Below are positions 37,304 to 62,820 of a stretch of DNA of 64,000 nucleotides, one piece after another. This stretch comes from Pseudogymnoascus verrucosus. Its lineage: Eukaryota. Made by a program: the position numbers and the translations under genes. The stretch lies in assembly GCA_001662655.1 (NCBI GenBank), contig KV460251.1; one strand, written 5' to 3'. Numbering within the stretch: position 1 is the stretch's first letter; each line of letters starts with the position of its first letter. The notes below the pieces were generated by a model. It worked only from the letters and a program-made list of their open reading frames with translations, was not told the origin of the DNA and did no database searches.

Positions 37304-39593
37304 CTAGCCCATGGGCAGTAGAAGCTTAGAGCAGAACCGCAACTCGTAGCACCTTGAATCCGCAGGGTCGAATGTTGCATTATTTTGTTTATCGAGAACC
37401 TCCGCATCTAACAAATAGTCAGCATTCATATCATAACAATCGAAAACACAGGTTTAGTGAGTAGTGAAATGTAGGACTTACGGCTCAGATTAAGTTTCTC
37501 AAAGTAGTTTTGTACCGTCGAATCCAATTCCGTGGCCAGTATCCCGTCCGGCATCCTCGCATAGGTCTTTGGTGGAATATTCCGCATCCGCAGCAACATC
37601 TGTAGCATATCCGTGATGCGATCGCCCTGGCTCCCATACCAGATCGGTGTCTTGTCGAGCGGCCAGCGAGCCTTCAGGTAGTCTTGTTCCCAGGACTTGA
37701 AGAGCCATGTCGACTTCTCGACGCAATTCAAGAGGATGATCGCGACAAGGAATGTCTCGAAGGATGAGGTAGAAGAGCGCTGGAGCAGACGTCGTTCGAG
37801 GTCGTTCAAAACAAGTTTGCTGGTCTGTGCAGCTTTCTTCTCCACTGCCGCGCTGAGCTGCATGCAGAGCAGCTGGTAAGTAGTTCCTTGCGGATCGATG
37901 GGATGGCTTTCTGAAGTTTCATCGCCCATGGTTCTGCGTTCCGATAAGCTCCATTTCAACTCGTGGTCGACAAGGATGTGCACCGTGGCCCAGAGCTCGA
38001 GGGCGCGACTCAAAAGGCTATCCTGCTTTTGGATGGAGAGTTCCATGGCGACACTGAGCGTGACGTTCATGAAATGTGAAGGCTCTTTTTCGAAGAATAT
38101 TGGGGACATCCGCTGCGCATACCCTTCAATTTTCATTGGCAGATCATCATTGTCATTATCGAGGATCCGAAGACTCTCGCTGGTGAAATCTATATTCAGG
38201 CCTAGGATCGGGTCGATATTCTTCTCTGACGGCAAATCTTGTCCCTCTAGAGCGTTGAATCCCGCGTATATGTTTGTTTCCGGATAATGAGAGGCCTCGA
38301 TCTGATTTACAGATGCTGTGAAGTTGACGCGGCTTTTCACGGCGTTGACCTCATGGTACGCGAGAACAGCATGTAGACCAGCAGAATACATGTCCAATTC
38401 GTCGGCAAGGCGGGTTCTCATACATGGCTGCTTCCATAAGCGCGCACTTTCAACATTTCGGCATGTATTGCACGGGGTCTCTCCGGAGCAAGGCTTCTTC
38501 AACATTCTGCAGCGAATGCAGGCCCCTCTTTTACGGACTTCCTGTACCTCCTTCCTGCGGTTTGGAGTGAATCTGCCCCGGACCTTTGGCTTATTAGCTC
38601 TTTGGCCATTTCCATACTCAGCACTGAATTCCGTTGTCATGCCCGTGTTAATGGCGATGGCCCGAGGGAAATTCTGCTGCTGCTGGGCTCTAGGCTCCTC
38701 TACGTGGCTTTCGAACCCTTCTGGGTCTGGGTACATGTTTCCGCCGGATCCATCCAGCATCGGCCAAGTTGGCTGATCTGCTGGACGATGGACGAAATAT
38801 TGGTCGCTTATAGTGCTGTCTTTCAGGCTGTTTATGTCCGACGCAAGACTTTCTGAGATCTCCTGTGGAAGGCCTTCGCCGAACAGCTGTGGGTCGACCA
38901 TAGACGATGTGAATCTGGCCGAGGCTGCAACAGCCATGCTAGTTGCGGCCGCCATGTTCAGTGGCGGGGGTGGGGACGTCGACGGGGCATTTTCTTGGGC
39001 AAAGTTGACGGGAGGGAGTGTAGATTCGCTATCTCGACGAGGGGTAAGTTTCTGGCTCAAGACTGAATTATTAGCATAACTATTGGAGGTATTAGAGGCC
39101 AGTTCCTACGTTTCTTATCGCGTTGGACACGGGCTTCATAGCTAAGTGGAGGGTTGTCTGGAGTCCATTGTTCTTGTAGCTCAAATCGATCAATCCTTGG
39201 TGTCTCCTCAGGCCGCGGGTCGGCACTGTGATTATGTTGGGTTCGATCATCTTGTTTTTCGCTCAGATCAATCTGTCTTGATACCTCTGCGAGTGTTTCG
39301 AGGGCTGTCCAGTTGCGATTGCCGACGGGTAACTCGACAGAGGACGGGTTGGCCTGATTGCGAGCATCGGTAATATCGGGAAGATCGTTGAGCTGGAGCA
39401 GAGCCTTCTGCCTATCCCGGAGAGAAATAGCAGGGCATTTTTTAACAAGATGCGTAGTGAGGCTGTCGATTCGTCCCTTGGGGAACTTTTCGCCGCATGC
39501 TCGGCAAGTGTGCTGGTATCGATTGCTCGAGTCCTCGAGTTTTTGGCCGCGTTCGAAAAATTCAAGGATAAGCTGGTTGGGTTTCCTACCCAT
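37304..39593 (-). CDS. Zn2Cys6 transcription factor with an N-terminal BED-like zinc finger
   Basis: N-terminal CRAC...LTTHLVKKC; internal RKRGACIRCRMLKKPCSGETPCNTC; introns at about 39109-39063 and 37481-37408; last exon ends ...RFCSKLLLPMG*. Confidence 0.85.
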
Positions 39594-40029
39594 TTTGGAG
39601 GCAGGTGAAACCAGGCAAAACAGTTATATCGGATATACTAAGAGGATTCGAAGTATTTCAAATGGGTTGTGCTTGGCTAAGTTGTTGGTTCGAGGCTTTC
39701 CCAACGGCCAAGACCAGGATGGTGCGATGCGACGGTACTGCGCACCTTCCGCGAGTCAATTGGGAATGCAGTTAAGTCGAGGATTCGAAGCTCGAGGCGT
39801 CTGATAAGTATGCAACCCCAAACATTCGGAATGGCTCTTCTGTGGACGAGTATGTCGCGTCGATTATGATGCTCATAGAAATTCGAGTGGCCACAAAGAG
39901 TAATGCCAGTTCTATGTAGGCGGTGTCGTGAGATGATGATTAGGCGGTGTCGAAAACACGCTAGTGCGGAAGTAATACGTCCGTGCACGGGCCATCATTC
40001 GCCGATCTTTTTTGCCTCTCAAATGAAAT

Positions 40030-41149: not shown

Positions 41150-42417
41150 CTACAATTTTGTGCTGGTGTTAAGAAAATGTTTCGGATCCAAGCTGCTGCA
41201 ATCTGCGCTGTGGGCTTTGCCTTCGAGGATCATCTCACTCATGACCAGGCCCGTTCCGGGTCCATTCTGAATACCCCACTCATCATGGCCAGTTGCGAGC
41301 CATAGGCCATGAATCCCGACAGGTCCGACCATAGGACCGACCTCCTCATCTTCTTCATGCTGCCGTATCTGAGGCTTATAGCAAGCTTGCTTCTTAACAA
41401 GTGCCCCATCATGGATTTCTTGTGAAACGCTTCCGATTGCTTTCAAAATGTCGGCGCATTTCTGGTCAACCAGCTCGATATCTCCAGTATCAGAGGGTAG
41501 GCTAGTTTCGCAGTCATCGAGTCCGATGGCGTAGACGGTGTCAAATTCATAGAGGTGGTCAGCAGGCCGAGGGTAGATATCTGGTGAGAGTAACTCGTCG
41601 AATGGGCTGGCTGGAGCTGGTTGGATATTGCGGAAAAGTATGTATGGTGACAGCGGCCTTGTTGGCTTAACAATAACACTATGTCCTCGAGGAGTCAACA
41701 AGGACACAGAAGGAAGTATATTGGGAGTTCATGGTCCCGCAGCAACGAGTATGTCAGTTGCATCAATCGTATGGGTGCCTTCATCATCCTCGAACTCGAC
41801 AGATTTGACAACCTTCCTATCTCATCTAAATTGATCTTGGTTGCAGATGCTTTGAGTTTGAACATAACGCCTTTCGACTCAGCGAGTTTGGCGAGTGTCT
41901 TGGTGAACATGTAAGGGTTCACCTGGCCAGAATTTCCTGGAACGCCTATCTCACCATACTGCTGTGTACTTCCAGGCAGAAGCCAATCCAGAGATGAAGG
42001 TGCATCACCATTGCCCTTCAGCTCGGGAGAGTCGGTCGCTTTGAGAATTTGTCTAAGGAGTTTGACATCAGCTGCAAACACATTTCTGTGCCCCCAAATC
42101 TTATCTCCACCATGTTCTTTTGCAAGGTCATTGTGAAGCCTGAAGCTAAGAGGTGCAAGGCATTTTGGAGTAGCCTAGTCTGCGATGAACCCTCCTCCCT
42201 TTCCACTAGAGCCTTCCGCAATATTGTTGGCCTCGAGAACGGTAACTGAGTGTACTTTGGAGTCGTAGAGCGGATGGTGCGACAGATAGTAAGCAGTTGA
42301 CGTGCCAACAATACTGCCGCCTACATATCGTGATTAACCTAGATTCACCAAGCATAAATCATGATCTTTACCAATGACAACAATTATCTGTTTTGTTTCG
42401 CCTTGCTGAGCAGCCAT
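41150..42417 (-). pseudogene. FAD-dependent oxidoreductase (DAO/Tda3-like) pseudogene
   Basis: IVVIGGSIVGTSTAYYL, SSGKGGGFIAD*AT (TAG 42177-42175), GQVNPYMFT, a frameshift near 41820, VAAGP*T (TGA 41731-41729) and ATGHDEWGIQNGPGTG; intron 42371-42321. Confidence 0.85.
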
Positions 42418-42886
42418 CTTTGCTATTTGTGTAAATGGAAGTAAACGATGAATGAGTGATGTCTGCGTAAGAATGTATACGAAGGCTAGCAAAACCAGAA
42501 AGGAGGTAGCAGAACCCACGTTTTGAAGGAGAGGCATGCTTCGTCCACTCCGAAAATTATACAAGGCTTTGTATGATTTTGGGGAAGATAATTAGGCTAT
42601 AGGCTGGGCTATCAAAATCTCGGCCGAATGAGTAATAGTTAAAAAGACAGATGGGGGTGGACTTGTCGATGACCTTGCTAACCCTCCCACATGAGTTTGT
42701 GTTGACTTGAGCGCTTGACTGGTGGCGAGATTTCTAAACCTGTAGGGCTGCAAGGTAATAACTAAGATTACCTGTAGTACACGCTCGACTGGTCTGCGAG
42801 GTTACCCATGTATTCACAACTTCATAGAACACCAAAGCCCGTGCTAACAACGCCATTGCTACATTTTCAACAAAAACCAAACCATT

Positions 42887-45190: not shown

Positions 45191-45981
45191 ATCAATCTCG
45201 AAGAACACTGTTGCCTTCAGTTACTGCTAGTGATGTGCAAAATATGCAGTTGGTTTGCTGCGCCTAAGACATTGATGCAGGACCAACACTCCTAGTTGTG
45301 CCACGATAAACGAACCCAGCCTCGCTCGGTGAGCGGAAAGAGACGCCAGCCAGGTTCACCCAATTGCCTCTTATATCTCTCCTGAAAATGGCGTTGACCC
45401 GGTACGTTGTAGAGCTCAAGTATGCAAACTCGCTCAATTTCAGCCTATGAAATCTCATTGTTTCTTTATACTTCCGCCCAGTACATCATCAGTCTGCCTT
45501 GTAATAACCGGTCAAGATGCGCTACATTGGCACGTTTCCCTTTCAAGCATCAAGAGCATAAACGAGCCGCGTTGGGTTGCAAACATCTACACACTGCCAC
45601 TCTCGTCTTTCGAGTAAGGCTATGAGATGGCCATCTCATATATTATAACCTTTGTCCTACCTAGACTATGAAATAGAAAGAGAACATTTCAAATCAAGAT
45701 TCTATTACAATTATTCATGACAATCTATACTTTCCGTCTTCATGGGTTATTTCTTCCAAGGTGCCAAAGGGTTCAAGGAATCTTGTCTTAAACTCCGTAC
45801 TTGCCCTCGTTTACAGACTAGACTGTCACCAACGCAGCAAGTGGCTGATACGTCACTAAACAAGTCACTTCAAACCTCACATAGCATCTGCCCAGTGGAT
45901 CAAGTACTAGAGCTATCAACGAGCAATACAAACGCTACTTGTATAGTAAGCGCAGTATCAGAGCTACCAGCAAACAATACA

Positions 45982-46915
45982 ATGCCGTTGAACGAAGGAT
46001 TAGTGAACATTCTTCGTGACGAGTCGCCTTCATTTAAGGGTATGAACCAAATCAAATAAAACTTGTTTTAAGACTAAGACTAAGAGTTATGGCCAGACCG
46101 TTGGTTAGGTCGTAAACTCCTCGACATTGCTATTGCTACTGTAGCTGCAAGATCGGTTTCTGCACAAGCTTCGGAGAAAGTGGTCAAGGTATGCCCTAGT
46201 CATTTTAATATCGATTCATGCATTGTGGTATACTTTTATGTCTAACTTGACTAACTTGCATTAGGATTTATACCAAGACATGAAAGCCGCTTTTCCATAT
46301 GACAATTGCTTCAGAGAATTACCTGGTAGAAGAGAAGCTGAACCAGAAGACCCTGATTACTGCTATCTTCTTGAGAGCTTGCTAGGTCACATTTACCTCC
46401 GGGGACAAGACGATGCCCCAGGCATTGTATCTATTTTAGAACGGAATGTCAGAGACCCTCGTCGATCCCAGGACGAAAAGTACCTAAAAAGCCCGCCATT
46501 ACCACCACAGATTAGCCAATCCACTCAAGAGGAACGAATCTTAGATAATGCTTCTAATGGTATGGCTACAGAGGTAGGGTCTGTCTTTGGTTCAAACCAA
46601 TATATTGGTAGCATCCCAAAGTTTACCCCACCTCAAGAAGTCAGTAACGGAAACGTGAGGCAGCTTCAAGAGCATGCCGATCTGGGAGATCTAGCGATAT
46701 ATACAGTGTTTTTCGAGGAGCATGGTACAATCAAAGGTACCAAGCCATCATATACGTGGCGCCAAACCCAATTAAAGCCTACAAGCAGGTTTCTGTTCAC
46801 AGTCACCTTTGAAGGGGTAGAGGTTGCTGGGTTGGAATGCAGTTCAAAGCAGAACGCAAAGCATGAGGCTTCAAAAGCTCTTTGGGAAGAACTGCATCTA
46901 AGAAAACAGTTGTAG
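45982..46915 (+). CDS. Degenerate RNase III-like domain plus C-terminal double-stranded RNA-binding domain (266 aa)
   Basis: Exons 45982-46039, 46097-46188, 46265-46915. DRWLGRKLLDIAIA and YLLESLLGHIYLRG resemble the RNase III helices; RFLFTVTFEGVEVAGLECSSKQNAKHEASKALWEEL is dsRBD-like. Confidence 0.7.
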
Positions 46916-47111: not shown

Positions 47112-48277
47112 ATGAATCGTTTACCAATAGAAATTCTGGCTAAAATAGCATCGCAGGCATTCCAAGAGAAACGAATAGGCCCAGGCAGATTGAGACTCGC
47201 GCCCTTCTTGACAATCAATAGGACATGCCAGGTGGTGATTGAGCGCGAGATATTTCGCCATATAGGCGTCGACACAGACAGCCTCCCCCAGCTCACAGCG
47301 ATTCTCAGCGGTTCAGCGGGTGATCGACGCATCCGCTTAATACAAAAACTAGAGTTTCATTATCTTCGTAACCTGGTGCCCTTCCTAACTCCCACCAAGC
47401 TCAGTGAGCTAAGAGAGCAGCAACGGCAGGCAAACGAGTCCTTTTCTGAAAGTATGAAGGCACTGTTCGGTCATCTCAAGGGCTGGGAGGAGAGATTGGA
47501 TGCGAGTGGGACAGTGGCCGCAAGTCAGCACCAGATGCGTCTCCTTCTGGGAAAAGAATTCTGCCAGAAGGAGGCGGTCCCGCCGATGCCGCCTTCTCAT
47601 ACAGAGGATATTGCAGTTCCGCCCTTGCCGGCACAGTCGCCGGCAAATGTGCCACTAGAGGCCCCCGGCCGACATTTTGCAAGGAGGCCATGGTTAGGAT
47701 ATGCTCCAGAGCCAGTTCTGGCCCGCCCCCTCTGATTGATGTGCGATATTTTGGCGAAGAGAAGCTGCTAGAACTTTGTATCGTGTCTTCGATGATATTA
47801 TACGAAAATCACGGCATCCGTCCGGATAGTCTGATGCAGACTCTCTCCCAGATGAAGTGTTTAGATCACTTTCAGGGGAATATTTTTGGTGAGATGAAGA
47901 ATTTGGATCGTACTCGTGAATACCGACAAGGTTTGTGACTATAGGTGTCTCTCATCAGACATATGTACTTTTCGGTTCGGGTCCTAACTTCCTTAGTTTT
48001 AGCTTAATCTCTGCACCCTCTGCCAGGATCGCTCGGTCTATTCTTCTGTGAGTTTCAGCCCTCGGATCCCGACCCGCGGACATCGTATTCAGTACTTGTT
48101 GGTAAATGTCTTTATACTTTTGGCATAATTGAAATTAATACACGTCTAACGAGAATCGAAGCTAGTGGTTGCCAGCGGTCAGACTATGCCCACCTCTGTG
48201 TCGTCAAACCGCCGCAAGAATCTATAGAATACTGGTCGAGGATTTCTCGGCTGCAGGAGGCGTTAGTGGACCCGTGA
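47112..48277 (+). pseudogene. F-box-type gene, disrupted (3' end approximate)
   Basis: MNRLPIEILAKIAS...LAPFLTINRTCQVVIEREIF F-box-like start; apparent frameshift near 47730; in-frame TAA at 48005-48007 after intron 47931-47996. Confidence 0.6.
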
Positions 48278-57982: not shown

Positions 57983-59839
57983 CTATCCTATTTTAATTGT
58001 CTGGATAAGTGCGGAACCCTCTAATGCTTCACCATCCATAATCCCGTGCACATATGCGTCCCCAATAAGCTGCAGCATATTACCCTGGGGTTGTTGCCGA
58101 AAGATGTATGGGACATCGGCGTTGGAAATGACAAAGACAGAGTCTCCAGGTTTTGTCTCGGAAGGTACAATGCCAATATAGCCACCAGATGCAAGCATCG
58201 GTCGCCGGCCACGAGCAATCTCTTGAAGCTGCTGGTTATAGTCACCCAAACCTGCTTCCGTGAAAGTTTGTGAGTCTAAGTGGCCCAGATCTCTATTTGT
58301 CAAGAACTCATGCACTTTACGAATCGTGCTTTCCGAAAGTCGAGGTTTCTCTGTCCCGTGCCATATCTCTTGGTCTGCAACGGCGGTACGCCAGGTAACT
58401 TGCGCTTGCTTAGAACCTTCAACTGCTCTAGATGATAGTTGCGATAGGTTGTTCAAATCACACAACCACCTGGTTACACCTTCATGTTCCCAAATCGCGC
58501 CGACTGATTGCACTTCACCTACGAAAGTCCCAGAAAGAGACAACGTCTTATTATCACCTTCGTTGCAGCCTGAAGCTTGGCCTATTATGAAATTATGGGT
58601 ACCTGATGCTGAGAAACGAGGTTGCAGGAGAGTTGTAGGGTAATTTGTGTCTCTATTAAGCGTACGTCGTTGTAGAGGACAACGGTAAGTCTCGCGTGAC
58701 CAGTCAGGAACCCACGATGGAAGCTCAGGTATCCTCTGTAGGGACTCGCAAAGAGAGAGAATTTCGATGTATCCGGCCTGAAAAAGGGTGTGCGCAGTAT
58801 TGATATAAACTTCAGCACACGACTTGCTATAGTTGGGACGAAGATTGAGCACTTGTCTGTCTTCAGCGATGCCCACTAATGCAAAGACTTTGTCCCGAGG
58901 ATCGGTTGCTTTATCTTGTCGAAGACTTCGCAGAAGACGAATGAGCGGCACTGGTCTAGCTGCTCTTCTAACTTTAAGCAGTTCAATTGCGTTCCGTGTA
59001 TCAATTGAAATAATAGACTCGTCATATGGCCTAAGTTGTGCATCGTGACTTGATGTTAGGAGCCGATAATGTCTAAAGTTTCTCAACACCCTCAAGCCGT
59101 AGTGAAGTTCATTCTCTGTGACAATTTTCTCGCCACATACGAACAATGTCTTTGCTGTAGTGCTCAGCTCTTGAACCACCCATATGCGGCCCCAGTAGTC
59201 GCGTTTGAAGAAGTCAGATAGCGCAGAAATGACCTTACTATATTGCGGATGTGTTGGCGACAGTTGGGCCTTCAGATCCTTGATAAATTGCTTGACGGCC
59301 CCCTCACTGCTCGAGAAGTCTTTCTCGTCTGCTTGGCAGAGATAGCGGAGTCGCAGATTAGGCTTCGTCCCAATGCCTAGTTCAACAGAACGTGCCCCAA
59401 ACTCTGCGATCCATGCCATGGCGATGTCACTATACCCTGCGGCTGGACCTAACCAAGCCAGAACTGAAGCAGCTCGCGAATATATCTCGTGCATTTGTCC
59501 CACTTGCTCACTCTTCTCTAACTCATCACTTTGATTGATACACAGAGCATCTACCCACAGAGTAATCGTTTTGTCTGGTAGCCTTACATGCCGAAGTGCG
59601 TTTTCAAGGTTCTCTGTAACCATTAAAATCGCCCCGTTAACGTAAATTGAACTTCTCGGAGTTGTATCTCCCCAGTTATACGAAAGTGCGATATACGGGG
59701 GGGGATTGTCGAGTGAGACATGAGAAACGTTACAGAAGACATGGTTGATTGAGGAGATATAAGGCTTTCCAGGTAAAACATGAACAACACGGATTGTCTT
59801 CTTATCTGGAGTCAGTGACCGGTATATGAAGCAGGACAT
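57983..59839 (-). CDS. HET-domain (HET-6-like) heterokaryon incompatibility protein
   Basis: YIALSYNWG, LWVDALCINQSDELEKSEQVGQMHEIYSRA, YWGRIWVVQE, ATDPRDKVFAL, LPSWVPDWS and LIGDAYVHGIMDGE; 618 aa, intronless. Confidence 0.95.
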   Translation of the reverse strand: MSCFIYRSLTPDKKTIRVVHVLPGKPYISSINHVFCNVSHVSLDNPPPYIALSYNWGDTTPRSSIYVNGAILMVTENLENALRHVRLPDKTITLWVDALCINQSDELEKSEQVGQMHEIYSRAASVLAWLGPAAGYSDIAMAWIAEFGARSVELGIGTKPNLRLRYLCQADEKDFSSSEGAVKQFIKDLKAQLSPTHPQYSKVISALSDFFKRDYWGRIWVVQELSTTAKTLFVCGEKIVTENELHYGLRVLRNFRHYRLLTSSHDAQLRPYDESIISIDTRNAIELLKVRRAARPVPLIRLLRSLRQDKATDPRDKVFALVGIAEDRQVLNLRPNYSKSCAEVYINTAHTLFQAGYIEILSLCESLQRIPELPSWVPDWSRETYRCPLQRRTLNRDTNYPTTLLQPRFSASGTHNFIIGQASGCNEGDNKTLSLSGTFVGEVQSVGAIWEHEGVTRWLCDLNNLSQLSSRAVEGSKQAQVTWRTAVADQEIWHGTEKPRLSESTIRKVHEFLTNRDLGHLDSQTFTEAGLGDYNQQLQEIARGRRPMLASGGYIGIVPSETKPGDSVFVISNADVPYIFRQQPQGNMLQLIGDAYVHGIMDGEALEGSALIQTIKIG

Positions 59840-60109
59840 AATTAGTATAGGCAGAATTCTACTGAAGGAGTTGGCTGATTGCTAAGGTTTCTGAACGAAA
59901 TTTAGGTGCGCTTTATAAGAGGCAAAGGCCGAACCTGCCTAAATGCAAACGGACTGGTGGAGGCTGGTTAAACGTATAGGAGAAGCGCATTTTGGTTACA
60001 GTAGAACAGTGAAACAGGGACCTGTTCTCCGCTGTCCCGCTCTGTGGCGTAAGCTCCGAACTTACCTCTTGCACGTTCGGTGCATATACAAGAAACAGAT
60101 TTCATGCAG

Positions 60110-60235
60110 CTTCTAAGGCAGACATCAGAATCAGCCAACTATCTCTCGTTTGTACGCCCTCGAGACCTTGCTCATTTTCAAGTGCAGGGACCCTGGCCAG
60201 TTACAAAGAACGGGAAATAAGGGCGGCGTTGACTT
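60110..60235 (+). repeat. Dispersed non-coding repeat, copy D (middle segment only)
   Basis: GACATCAGAATCAGCCAACTATCTCTCGT...TGCTCATT...AGTGCAGGG...ACGGGAAATAAG aligns with 44929-45028. Confidence 0.6.
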
Positions 60236-60719
60236 TCCCCGTTTACCACAAATGGTGCCTAAATAACGACATCAAATTTCCCAACCGCATTTTCCAGGAA
60301 TCAGAGTAGTTGAAGCTTTTGAAGCTTTTGAGCACCTTTGAGAGCTATCTTCCCAGACTCCTCTCAACCTTCTGCAGAGGTCATCATTATCTCTCGTGCC
60401 TCGAGTCATAAAGTGACAGGGATGGTACGACTAGATAAATACCCAACCATTTCTACAAGGCAGACATACAAGTAATGCAAGGCGAACCGAGGCGCAATTC
60501 ATGCAGAATTGTTTGGCCATGATTCGCCCTCGCCATTTTCAAAGAGCCTTGCGCTAAACCGGTAACTTTATAACACACTTATTAAGTTATTTCACAGTGG
60601 CGTGATGATAGATTCCTTAAATGCGTAGCTGCCCAACTTTACACCTTTAAATGACTTCCCAGCCCTCATTACGATAATTAATAACAGATAAACAACAAGA
60701 TACCTACAATTGGGCTCTG

Positions 60720-62820
60720 ATGGCTGAGGTTGTAGGCATATTGGGAAGTGGTGCTGGAATCGCTAGCCTTGGATGCCAAATCTTTAAAAGCATTTACAAA
60801 TTGCAGCAGGTTTTAACAGACATTCGGAATGCTCCACAGGAACTAAAAACTATTTTAGAGGAGATTGCTCTGGTTACAACTATCCTTATCCAGATTTCGG
60901 AACGTCCACACCTTTACACTATTGGCCGAAGCCAGAGTGTGGCTAGAGACCAGGCTGTCATTTACTGTGAAACAGCGTGTAGGCAATTATTTACCGTCGT
61001 CTCTGAGATAGAAAACGAGATAGGAGAATCGAAATGTCGCTCCCGGTGGCACTGCTTCCTAACAGTACTAAAAGCAAAAAAGATTACAGACCTTGTTAAT
61101 AGGCTAGAGAGAGCAAAATCAATTCTTGCACTTGCACAGCTCATGTATCTCCAGTAAGGCGCTTACTTCTCTTGACAATTATTGTAAGCTAACAACAACA
61201 AATAGATCCTTTGAGATTGAGAGGCTAAACCAGAAAACAAAGATCTCATCGATTTCTACCGCAGAAAATCCTGAACCCCGCATGTCAACCACGCCTATAC
61301 GCCAAAATGAAAATGGCCATATCAGTGCCCCTTATAACCAGACAACTTTTCAACTAGGGATTGGCGTACTTGTGGTGCGCCAGGTGCCAAATGGCAGTGG
61401 AAAAACTCGCACTTCTCTAGAAGAAACCATAATTCAGTTTCGATTTGCAGACTGGTTCCTACGATGGGCAATTAGTATCGCGATTTGCCCAGAAATCGAG
61501 AACGTAAAAATAACGATAAGAACCTACCACCTCGTTCCTAGTAGCTCAGCCATATTTCAGGCCTGTGCCTTGGGCGACGACCAGACAGTGGCCCGGCTCA
61601 TCCGAGAAGGTAGAGCTTCTGCATTTGATATGACTAGCAACGGGGTAACTCCTCTGCATGTAAGAAAGTCCAAACTCGCTATCCGCTATGAGTCCAGTCC
61701 TCTTGTGCTCAATTATGGTTATTGTCCAACCTATCTGACGTGTCGGTTTAGGTGGCCGCCGCTTGGCACCATCCTAGTACGTGCAAGCAGCTTTTGGAAC
61801 ATGGCGCAAATAGTTCGTTGTTGATGCAATATAGTACAATCTCGTGGTTAGTGACTTATCAACTCAGTCAACAAACAAATATCCTACTAACAGTATTTTC
61901 CAAGGAACGCCCTAGGCTTGGCCTCCGAATACGCCGGTTACTACCGTTGTTTCTTGTTTCCAGGACTGGAGGAACATCGCCCTGGGCCCAAAGAAGACCT
62001 TAGTCAAAAGCGCGAGACGATGCGTATACTGACTGATCACAATAGTTGCGAAGTGCATCAAGGTTATAGGCCAGGCCATACCGGCTATTGGAATGGGTCT
62101 ACGTCCGCTCTGCACATGTTTCGAGGCACTTCTGACGACTTCTTGTGGTTATACAAGCGTGAAAATGTGTTAATGGACGTTAAAGACTCAGAGGATTATA
62201 TTGCGTCCATTGTCATTCAACAGACTCAGATGTTTCCAAATGCCTCTTTTCCAGCAGCTTTCAGCCTAGTGTCGAGTATGGAACATTTGGCAAAGTACAG
62301 AGACTCTTCTGGATCAACCCTATTGCACCATCTTCTTAACACAAGTTCTGACATAAAACCTGGTTTTTGGATGAATGGAATCGATACTTTTGATATAGCA
62401 AGGACACTACTTGAACATGGTGCAGACCCAACATCTCGCAATGACCAAGGCTACACTCCATTAATGGGTGCCGCAAGGGATAGCCTACTCTACTTACATA
62501 GTAAGGCTTTATTCTGGACGGCTGAATCAGCTGCTAAGATGTACTCTGGATATTTAACTCGTTGGATAAAGACGCTAGAGTCTTGCCTTGTTGACGCCCG
62601 TGAGTACCGCTCTCGAGAAATTGAATTAGGCGCAGAGAGCTTTGTGCTATGCCGGCAGTTTCAGCACTCCAACGACGGACTTAGCGGGACAGGACAATGG
62701 TCCGTAAGACTTGTGTTTGGGCTGGATGATATTCACCATGGCCTTCAAATTAAATTCCAGTTCCAATCTGAAGAGAAGAACGAGAGAATGCCTGGATCTT
62801 GGCCCAAAGAAATAATATAA
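60720..62820 (+). CDS. Fungal STAND-type N-terminal (HeLo-like/SesA-like) domain plus ankyrin-repeat protein
   Basis: MAEVVGILGSGAGIASL...IRNAPQELKTILEEI N-terminus; ankyrin motifs GVTPLHVAA...LLEHGAN, GSTLLH and LLEHGADPTSRNDQGYTPLMGAA; introns 61154-61205, 61660-61751, 61847-61904. Confidence 0.8.

What the first reader, a model, noticed from the sequence alone, without database searches (positions are those of the whole stretch)
45982..46915. Compact RNase III-like plus dsRBD protein with a degenerate catalytic signature in the accessory region
Seen: splicing two canonical introns gives an intact 266-aa protein; the ORF track shows only its last exon. FKDRWLGRKLLDIAIA lines up with the RNase III signature ERLEFLGDAVL, and YCYLLESLLGHIYLRG lines up with ADxxEALIGAIYLD. 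A dsRBD-like C-terminus follows (SSKQNAKHEAS). Established: RNase III needs an acidic E/D and D/E cluster for metal binding, and here only the last Glu appears to be retained. Inference: a catalytically dead or repurposed dsRNA-binding protein, unlike Dicer or Rnt1, that has stayed intact among pseudogenes. It could act as an RNAi modulator, antiviral sensor or silencing suppressor carried by accessory DNA.
Basis: partly seen in the sequence, partly recalled or inferred. Interest (0 to 1): 0.7.

Follow-up and report, generated by a model that had tools for sequence, protein, structure and literature searches.

The report
Fungal dead RNase III dsRNA binder
This fungal gene encodes a protein built like the RNA-cutting enzyme RNase III that has lost its cutting site and probably just grips double-stranded RNA as a pair, and it belongs to a scattered family of mould proteins whose job is still open.

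Summary
The two introns give a 266-aa protein identical to an annotated Pseudogymnoascus protein, and one contig from a related organism lacks both introns. The C-terminal dsRBD is certain (Pfam E 1e-6). The N-terminal domain has no Pfam RNase III hit, but its model matches RNase III folds: 21 of the top 28 of 48,161 chains are titled RNase III-family. It is predicted to homodimerise through the signature helix (0.62 against best control 0.15). It is not the genome's Dicer, Rnt1, mL44 or mL57. Relatives occur in three ascomycete classes. None of 15 has all four catalytic acids. The 'retained' Glu87 is confined to one clade, while dimer-contact residues are conserved. Two corrections: an in-frame ATG at 45742 adds 80 conserved residues with a basic, presequence-like start (346 aa), and the tree looks like an old, patchily kept host family, not mobile cargo. 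Best reading: a non-catalytic, dimeric dsRNA binder, possibly with a mitochondrial long form. RNAi, antiviral or suppressor roles are untested.

The parts
45742..45981 (+). 80-codon N-terminal extension from an upstream in-frame ATG: basic, acid-poor first ~22 residues, then an ELP motif just before the second Met
   Evidence: Open frame. Homologous extension in annotated P0016, in L024 and in Helotiales proteins. X1 contig reaches 5' of 45742.
45982..46039 (+). Exon 1 from the second ATG (start of the annotated 266-aa form; A at -3)
46040..46096 (+). Intron 1, 57 nt, GT..AG, phase 1, contains in-frame stops
   Evidence: skipped in X1 contig; same position in L024
46097..46188 (+). Exon 2: degenerate RNase III signature helix (D20 R21 W22 L23 G24 R25 K26 .. 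D29), the predicted dimer helix
   Evidence: interface residues 17-50
46189..46264 (+). Intron 2, 76 nt, GT..AG, phase 0
   Evidence: net 76 nt skipped in X1 contig; same position in L024
46265..46483 (+). Exon 3, rest of the RNase III-like domain (residues 51-123); Y84 (46364-46366) and E87 (46373-46375) at the D114 and E117 positions; invariant G91
46484..46678 (+). About 65-residue low-confidence, poorly conserved linker
   Evidence: pLDDT under 50 for residues 123-178; 11-25% identity to non-Pseudogymnoascus members where scorable
46688..46915 (+). dsRNA-binding domain (alpha-beta-beta-beta-alpha) and stop codon; KQNAK at the KKxAK position
   Evidence: Pfam dsrm E 1e-6; family profile hits TRBP/Loquacious/PACT dsRBDs at about 1e-15 to 1e-14; Z 11.3, rmsd 1.7, 70 aligned to HYL1 dsRBD

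Best explanation
A pseudo-RNase III: a non-catalytic, homodimeric dsRNA-binding protein of a patchily retained Pezizomycotina family. SHOWN: spliced gene, dsRBD, RNase III-like fold (predicted model), loss of the four-acid metal site across the family, separate identity from the core RNase III proteins. PREDICTED: the dead domain dimerises through the antiparallel signature helices. INFERRED: the dimer carries two dsRBDs on flexible linkers of about 65 residues, so it binds long or structured dsRNA bivalently without cutting, much like TRBP/DRB-type binders. It would thereby shield, sequester or hand on dsRNA. Its most likely dispensable role is handling foreign or aberrant dsRNA. Two conserved in-frame starts probably give a short cytosolic form and a long form with a targeting peptide; which compartment matters is open.
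For: Fold: the ten best Foldseek hits of the full model are bacterial RNase III (E 3.2e-4 to 1.4e-3). For the N-domain alone, 21 of the top 28 VIA rows are titled RNase III/Dicer/Drosha/R3B2/Mini-III/RTL (best Z 8.0, rmsd 3.7, 117 aligned); the first clearly unrelated row has Z 4.6 with 57 aligned. Catalytic loss: of 15 members with both motifs, none has 4 acids, 1 has 3, 2 have 2, 7 have 1 and 5 have 0. The essential E110/E117 position (review PMC3867540, passages) is non-acidic in all 12 non-Pseudogymnoascus members. Different lineages keep different remnants, as expected of decay. Dimer: score 0.62 against best control 0.15; runs agree in at least 96% of contacts; partner pLDDT at least 78. 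The mark was reached by 21 of 30 solved pairs and 0 of 23 single chains in microbes, and 17 of 29 and 0 of 30 in eukaryotes. Contact residues W22, L23, K26, D29, A33 are among the best conserved (12, 11, 12, 12 as D/E, 13 of 13-14). dN/dS against L024 is 0.29 in the dead domain. The dsRBD keeps helix-1 Glu and a KKxAK-like motif in most members. Precedents for non-catalytic RNase III domains: RNC1, KREPB4/5.
Against: No binding, cleavage or localisation experiment. Z 8.0 is within the range the tool calls common for helical folds; Foldseek on the N-domain alone had no hit at E <= 0.001 (best 0.17). No Pfam Ribonuclease_3 match in any of 23 members, and the HH probability is low. The dimer pass may come from likeness to solved RNase III dimers (only 1 of 7 eukaryotic pairs without an older solved relative passed). 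dsRBD dN/dS is 0.75 in the one pair tested, so RNA binding may be weakly constrained, and the query has KQNAK rather than KKxAK. R3B2 shows that an odd signature can still cut RNA.
Confidence: 0.62

Rival explanations
1. Organellar RNA factor: the 346-aa form is the main product, is imported into mitochondria and binds structured mitochondrial RNA (intron splicing, RNA maturation, or dsRNA of mitochondrial viruses), like RNC1 or KREPB4/5 in other organelles. Compatible with the best explanation's mechanism but a different job.
For: 9 of 12 long-form N-termini have at least 3 K/R and at most 1 D/E in the first 22 residues, as do the genome's mL44 and mL57. Background: 730 of 6708 internal windows (11%) and 15 of 646 linker windows. 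Seen in both Leotiomycetes and Chaetothyriales. A second Met follows the ELP motif in 9 of 9 long Leotiomycete-type forms; ATG1 has a weaker context than ATG2. Dead RNase III domains are known from organelles.
Against: The threshold was set after seeing the sequences, members are related, and the background is internal sequence, not N-termini. No targeting predictor was available. Four members with shorter N-termini (P0044, P0051, P0061, P0064) start acidic and were left out of the 12. A basic amphipathic N-terminus with Gly2 and Cys could equally be a membrane anchor. Extension dN/dS is 0.76.
Confidence: 0.25
2. Atypical active ribonuclease like Mucor R3B2, cutting ssRNA or nicking through a rebuilt site around D20/E87.
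For: R3B2 is rank 2 for the N-domain (Z 7.9, rmsd 3.5, 113 aligned; tied with the other top rows). E87 is present in 13 of 13 members of its clade and D20 in 12 of 13 across the family. One Chaetothyriales member has 3 of 4 acids.
Against: R3B2 keeps three acids plus Asn at the four positions (PMC8136814 section 20); the query has one acid, two Arg and a Tyr. The 3-acid member lacks the essential Glu. D20 is listed among dimer contacts.
Confidence: 0.07
3. Dominant-negative or partner subunit: the dead domain heterodimerises with an active single-domain RNase III (Rnt1-like at C12, or the small intact RNase III at C38) and inhibits it or turns it into a nickase, as proposed for KREPB4/5.
For: The genome has two single-domain RNase III genes with intact-looking signatures. 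The dimer surface is what is conserved. Precedent.
Against: No heterodimer was tested. The homodimer model explains the conserved symmetric K26-D29 contact. No sequence affinity to either partner (about 0 bits).
Confidence: 0.1
4. Fast-diverged duplicate of the mitoribosomal subunit mL44 acting as an alternative ribosome subunit or assembly factor.
For: Same layout: presequence-like start, dead RNase III domain, dsRBD. Mitoribosome chains appear among the fold hits.
Against: The family profiles score the genome's mL44 and mL57 at about 0 bits for both domains, while E. coli RNase III scores 11.1 (best of 240 shuffles 9.4) and the genome's double-dsRBD protein 14.3. Chaetothyriales members keep EW[LI]G[DE], closer to active enzymes than to mL44. 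Distribution appears patchy.
Confidence: 0.06

Closest known systems
Class 1 RNase III (Aquifex, E. coli)
   Same: RNase III domain followed by one dsRBD; best Foldseek hits; predicted dimer through the signature helix.
   Different: Three of four catalytic acids replaced; linker about 65 residues against about 7; domain compact; 11-17% identity; N-terminal extension.
Mucor R3B2 (NCRIP RNase; PMC8136814)
   Same: Fungal, atypical signature, single RNase III-like domain plus dsRBD, homodimer; rank 2 fold hit.
   Different: R3B2 has two dsRBDs, keeps three acids plus Asn and cuts ssRNA; it is described from Mucorales; 11% identity; no R3B2-like protein was recognised among the sequence hits.
Mitoribosomal mL44 (MRPL3) and mL57 (MRPL15)
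   Same: Catalytically degenerate RNase III fold, presequence-like start, dsRBD in mL44.
   Different: Both have separate genes in this genome (names assigned from recalled architecture and Pfam hits) and score about 0 bits with the family profiles.
Non-catalytic organellar RNase III proteins RNC1 and KREPB4/5
   Same: Dead RNase III domains used for RNA binding or dimerisation (review PMC3867540).
   Different: RNC1 has tandem domains in chloroplasts; KREPB4/5 carry PUF domains and are proposed to pair with active partners; neither is fungal.
TRBP/PACT/Loquacious/DRB4 dsRNA-binding cofactors
   Same: The family's dsRBD is most like theirs (E about 1e-15 to 1e-10); a dimer would present two dsRBDs as they do.
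   Different: They have tandem dsRBDs and no RNase III fold; no Dicer interaction shown here.

Membership tests
RNase III superfamily (fold) | All-alpha RNase III domain fold | tested here: met
   Model pLDDT mostly above 85 over residues 21-110; 21 of top 28 VIA rows titled RNase III-family, Z 8.0-5.2; predicted model only
RNase III superfamily (fold) | Pfam Ribonuclease_3 match | tested here: not met
   0 of 23 members at E <= 1; locus not among the genome's PF00636 or PF14622 matches
Class 1 RNase III enzyme | RNase III domain followed by dsRBD | tested here: met
Class 1 RNase III enzyme | Four acidic metal ligands (E41, D45, D114, E117) | tested here: not met
   R21, R25, Y84, E87; 0 of 15 members have four
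Class 1 RNase III enzyme | Homodimer through the signature helix | tested here: inconclusive
   Model supports it, 0.62 against 0.15, but may reflect likeness to solved dimers
Class 1 RNase III enzyme | Mg2+-dependent dsRNA cleavage | not testable with these tools
   needs an assay
dsRBD proteins (PF00035) | dsrm above the curated cut-off | tested here: met
   29.6 bits against 23; 21 of 23 members match
Dicer | Tandem RNase III domains with helicase/DUF283/PAZ | tested here: not met
   Single domain in 266/346 aa; tandem-domain genes lie on contigs C10 and C29
Rnt1/Pac1 | Orthology and intact signature | tested here: not met
   Rnt1-like gene with intact signature on C12; family profile scores it -0.9 bits
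mL44 / mL57 | Orthology to the mitoribosomal subunit | tested here: not met
   Separate genes on C77 and C53; about 0 bits
R3B2 family | Three acids plus Asn at the catalytic centre; two dsRBDs | tested here: not met
   One acid and one dsRBD here
R3B2 family | ssRNA cleavage | not testable with these tools
   needs an assay
Mitochondrially imported proteins | Cleavable presequence | tested here: inconclusive
   Crude charge test only, 9 of 12 against 11% background; no predictor available

The most novel reading that the evidence does not exclude
A fungal pseudo-RNase III made from two starts, one form cytosolic and one imported into mitochondria, that acts as a dimeric dsRNA sensor or sponge in both compartments. 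It would be a host factor against RNA viruses, including those replicating in mitochondria where Dicer-based silencing is not thought to act (recalled).
Probability: 0.12. Interest if true: 0.8.

Novelty: new variant of a known kind. Interest (0 to 1): 0.45.

Why it matters
Filamentous ascomycetes are usually described with Dicers, Rnt1 and two mitoribosomal RNase III-fold proteins (general knowledge). This is an additional family, labelled only 'hypothetical' or 'DRBM domain-containing' in the records seen, whose RNase III domain is invisible to Pfam. It offers a concrete candidate for a dsRNA-binding cofactor or modulator in fungi, and a natural series showing an enzyme site decaying differently in each lineage while the dimer surface is kept. 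If the long form is mitochondrial, it points to dsRNA handling in fungal mitochondria. Dead RNase III domains as such are known, so the concept is not new; the family and its possible dual targeting are.

Tried and rejected
phmmer of P0001 against PDB sequences: 0 hits at E <= 10. The family profile found only dsRBDs strongly; its one N-domain RNase III hit (E. coli, 7r97) had E 1.4. The Pfam Paramyxo_P_V_N (E 0.04) and HEPN_SAV2148 (E 0.2) matches are below cut-off and fall on the linker or a single member; rejected. Atlas hits were all under 0.9 and count only as leads; the best was an unnamed Ascomycota dsrm cluster. Viral origin: 11 pattern matches in IMG/VR, none confirmed (finds close relatives only); BFVD hits are mostly dsRBD-level matches, and full-length viral RNase III rows are weak. 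No bacterial genome scan was run. Sequencing runs: no RNA holder listed as RNA on record with a large share; X7 gave two short exon-3 pieces and X11 only upstream sequence. Synteny could not be tested: only one related locus of 1.6 kb was found. No telomere repeat or RIP signature near the gene. No earlier scan findings. Four plant, insect or alga-like dsRBD-only hits (P0045, P0053, P0058, P0071; origin judged by eye) were dropped from the alignments, as were P0030, P0043 and P0065. Literature: ten searches of open-licence PMC and bioRxiv listed no paper on this family by title or abstract start; subscription papers and supplements were not seen.

Full report
Gene model. The window is fungal DNA. 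Splicing 46040-46096 and 46189-46264 gives an uninterrupted 266-aa frame from ATG 45982; both introns are GT..AG, AT-rich and contain stops. The product is identical to P0008, which public sources list for Pseudogymnoascus as hypothetical or DRBM-domain protein. Of 14 runs listed four were laid. One contig of run X1 (RNA status is a guess; 90-95% alike) lacks exactly intron 1 and a net 76 nt at intron 2, whereas the X12 contig spans the region unspliced. This is one contig of one study, from a related organism. A metagenomic homologue, L024, has introns at the same two places. The gene is single-copy in the genome at the sensitivity.

A longer form. The frame is open to an ATG at 45742, adding 80 residues. 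The extension is annotated in P0016, present in L024 and alignable with Helotiales proteins, including an ELP motif followed by a second Met in 9 of 9 long Leotiomycete-type forms. The X1 contig reaches upstream of 45742, and the listed X1 and X12 differences create no stop there (22 differences were not shown). The first 22 residues are basic and acid-poor in 9 of 12 long forms, like the genome's mL44 and mL57, against 11% of internal windows. The test is crude and post hoc, and four members with short acidic N-termini were not among the 12. A mitochondrial presequence is therefore a lead; a membrane anchor is an alternative. Two starts with leaky scanning is inference from context.

Domains. 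The C-terminal dsRBD passes Pfam (E 1e-6), and the family profile hits TRBP, Loquacious and PACT dsRBDs at about 1e-15 to 1e-14. The N-domain has no Pfam RNase III hit in 23 members. The AlphaFold model (56 rows) has two confident domains and a disordered linker. Its ten best Foldseek hits are bacterial RNase III, and VIA aligns residue 17 to Aquifex residue 36, the start of the signature. A separate model of the N-domain, built on the natural fragment P0007 (91% identical), gave 21 RNase III-titled chains in the top 28 of 48,161 (best Z 8.0, rmsd 3.7, 117 aligned). The other seven are four mitoribosome chains, an editosome chain, FN1578 and a Toxoplasma ring protein; most are RNase III-fold by my recall. 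The first clearly unrelated row has Z 4.6. Z values are modest and Foldseek gave nothing under E 0.001 for this domain; the evidence is the uniform ranking.

Catalytic site. Against E. coli E41/D45/D114/E117 the protein has R21/R25/Y84/E87. The four-acid cluster is described in PMC8136814 (abstract, passages and section 20 read) and the essential E110/E117 in PMC3867540 (passages). Among 15 members with both motifs none has four acids; Chaetothyriales keep the first two, several Helotiales keep the third, and only the Pseudogymnoascus-like clade has the fourth. In a 26-row tree that clade (7 rows, 98/95) sits among rows with L, F, C, M or I at that site (midpoint root, two long branches, basal forks open). 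So Glu87 is more simply a clade-specific regain, perhaps pairing with R21/R25 (inference), than a family remnant. R3B2 is the caution that odd sites can be active, but it keeps three acids plus Asn.

What is conserved instead. D20, W22, G24, K26, D/E29, A33, F60, C65 and G91. A two-copy prediction of residues 10-125 scored 0.62 against a best control of 0.15, with at least 96% contact agreement and pLDDT at least 78. The interface is the antiparallel helix 17-39, with K26-D29 across the axis and W22 against residues 33, 37, 46, 49 and 50 of the partner. That resembles the RNase III ball-and-socket (motif named; residue identities recalled). The mark was reached by 21 of 30 solved pairs and 0 of 23 single chains in microbes and 17 of 29 and 0 of 30 in eukaryotes, and the pass may reflect likeness to solved dimers. 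Pairwise dN/dS against L024 is 0.29 for the dead domain, 0.54 for the linker, 0.75 for the dsRBD and 0.76 for the extension (one pair, few sites). The gene is under constraint, most clearly in the dead domain; the dsRBD value could mean relaxation or rapid change.

Not a core orthologue. The genome holds two tandem-RNase III (Dicer-type) genes, an Rnt1-like gene, mL44, mL57, a small RNase III with intact motifs and a double-dsRBD protein on other contigs (names from architecture and recall). Family profiles score mL44, mL57 and Rnt1 near 0 bits; E. coli RNase III scores 11.1, just above the best of 240 shuffles (9.4). The parent gene cannot be assigned.

Distribution. The profile search of 1.84 billion representatives gave 54 hits, and two word-index searches added 7 more proteins. 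Named members come from Pseudogymnoascus, Stipitochalara, Phialocephala, Tricladium, Coleophoma, Venustampulla, Exophiala, Rhinocladiella, Fonsecaea and Polychaeton, spanning Leotiomycetes, Eurotiomycetes and Dothideomycetes (lineages checked for four, the rest recalled). Many members are unnamed metagenomic proteins, and I looked up only 26 of the hits. The named Leotiomycetes and the Chaetothyriales each group together, which fits vertical descent with frequent loss; absence from other fungi was not tested. No viral contig encodes a close relative.

Neighbourhood. Left of about 40 kb lie core genes (cullin, TatD, helicase, eIF3g, Hsp70). The gene sits in the right part with a stop-interrupted DAO-family gene, a frameshifted gene at 47112, an MFS transporter, a Zn-cluster factor, a HET-domain gene and SesA/ankyrin frames.

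Mechanism and verdict. Most likely a non-catalytic homodimer that presents two dsRBDs on long linkers and binds dsRNA without cutting (0.62). Rivals or refinements: a mitochondrial RNA factor (0.25), an inhibitory or partner subunit for an active RNase III (0.10), an R3B2-like nuclease (0.07) and an mL44 duplicate (0.06); these overlap partly with the best reading. Non-catalytic RNase III domains are known (RNC1, KREPB4/5), and plant RTL1 is an active siRNA suppressor (PMC5714217, title, abstract and outline). PMC12663654 on fungal Dicers (passages) showed nothing on this family in the passages seen. Ten literature searches listed no description of it; no supplements were read and subscription papers are not covered. 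Verdict: real, a new variant of a known kind, interest 0.45.

Noticed in passing
window 41150-42500 (-): DAO-family FAD oxidoreductase with two in-frame stops (41729-41731, 42175-42177) and a frame change; probable pseudogene.
   Followed up: partly
window 47112-47938 (+): Gene with an F-box-like start (by eye; no Pfam hit) that shifts frame at 47714-47720 relative to an uninterrupted 45-59% identical paralogue on contig C8.
   Followed up: partly
window 57986-62817: HET-domain gene (E 9e-31) next to SesA N-terminal and ankyrin frames: a fungal non-self-recognition type neighbourhood.
   Followed up: no
L012 1423-2026 (-) (G000 contig C38): Small two-exon RNase III with intact-looking motifs and no dsRBD detected, a Mini-III-like stand-alone enzyme separate from Rnt1 and the Dicers.
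   Followed up: no
L004 1127-2088 (+) (G000 contig C3): Protein with apparently two dsRBD-like units and no RNase III domain; best own-genome match to this family's dsRBD profile (14.3 bits). Candidate DRB-type cofactor.
   Followed up: partly
window 37426-39623 (-): Conserved-looking gene with a BED-like zinc finger and a Zn2Cys6-like cluster, both below Pfam cut-off.
   Followed up: no
protein P0030: 482-aa protein in which a dsRBD of this family is fused behind an unrelated N-terminal region; could be a real fusion or a gene-calling artefact.
   Followed up: no
L028 5089-6804 (+), about 5 kb beyond the window's right end: 572-aa frame that looks like a DNA-transposon transposase by eye; not searched.
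   Followed up: no
window 46902: Run X12's contig has one extra A in a homopolymer four codons before the stop, which would change only the extreme C-terminus.
   Followed up: no
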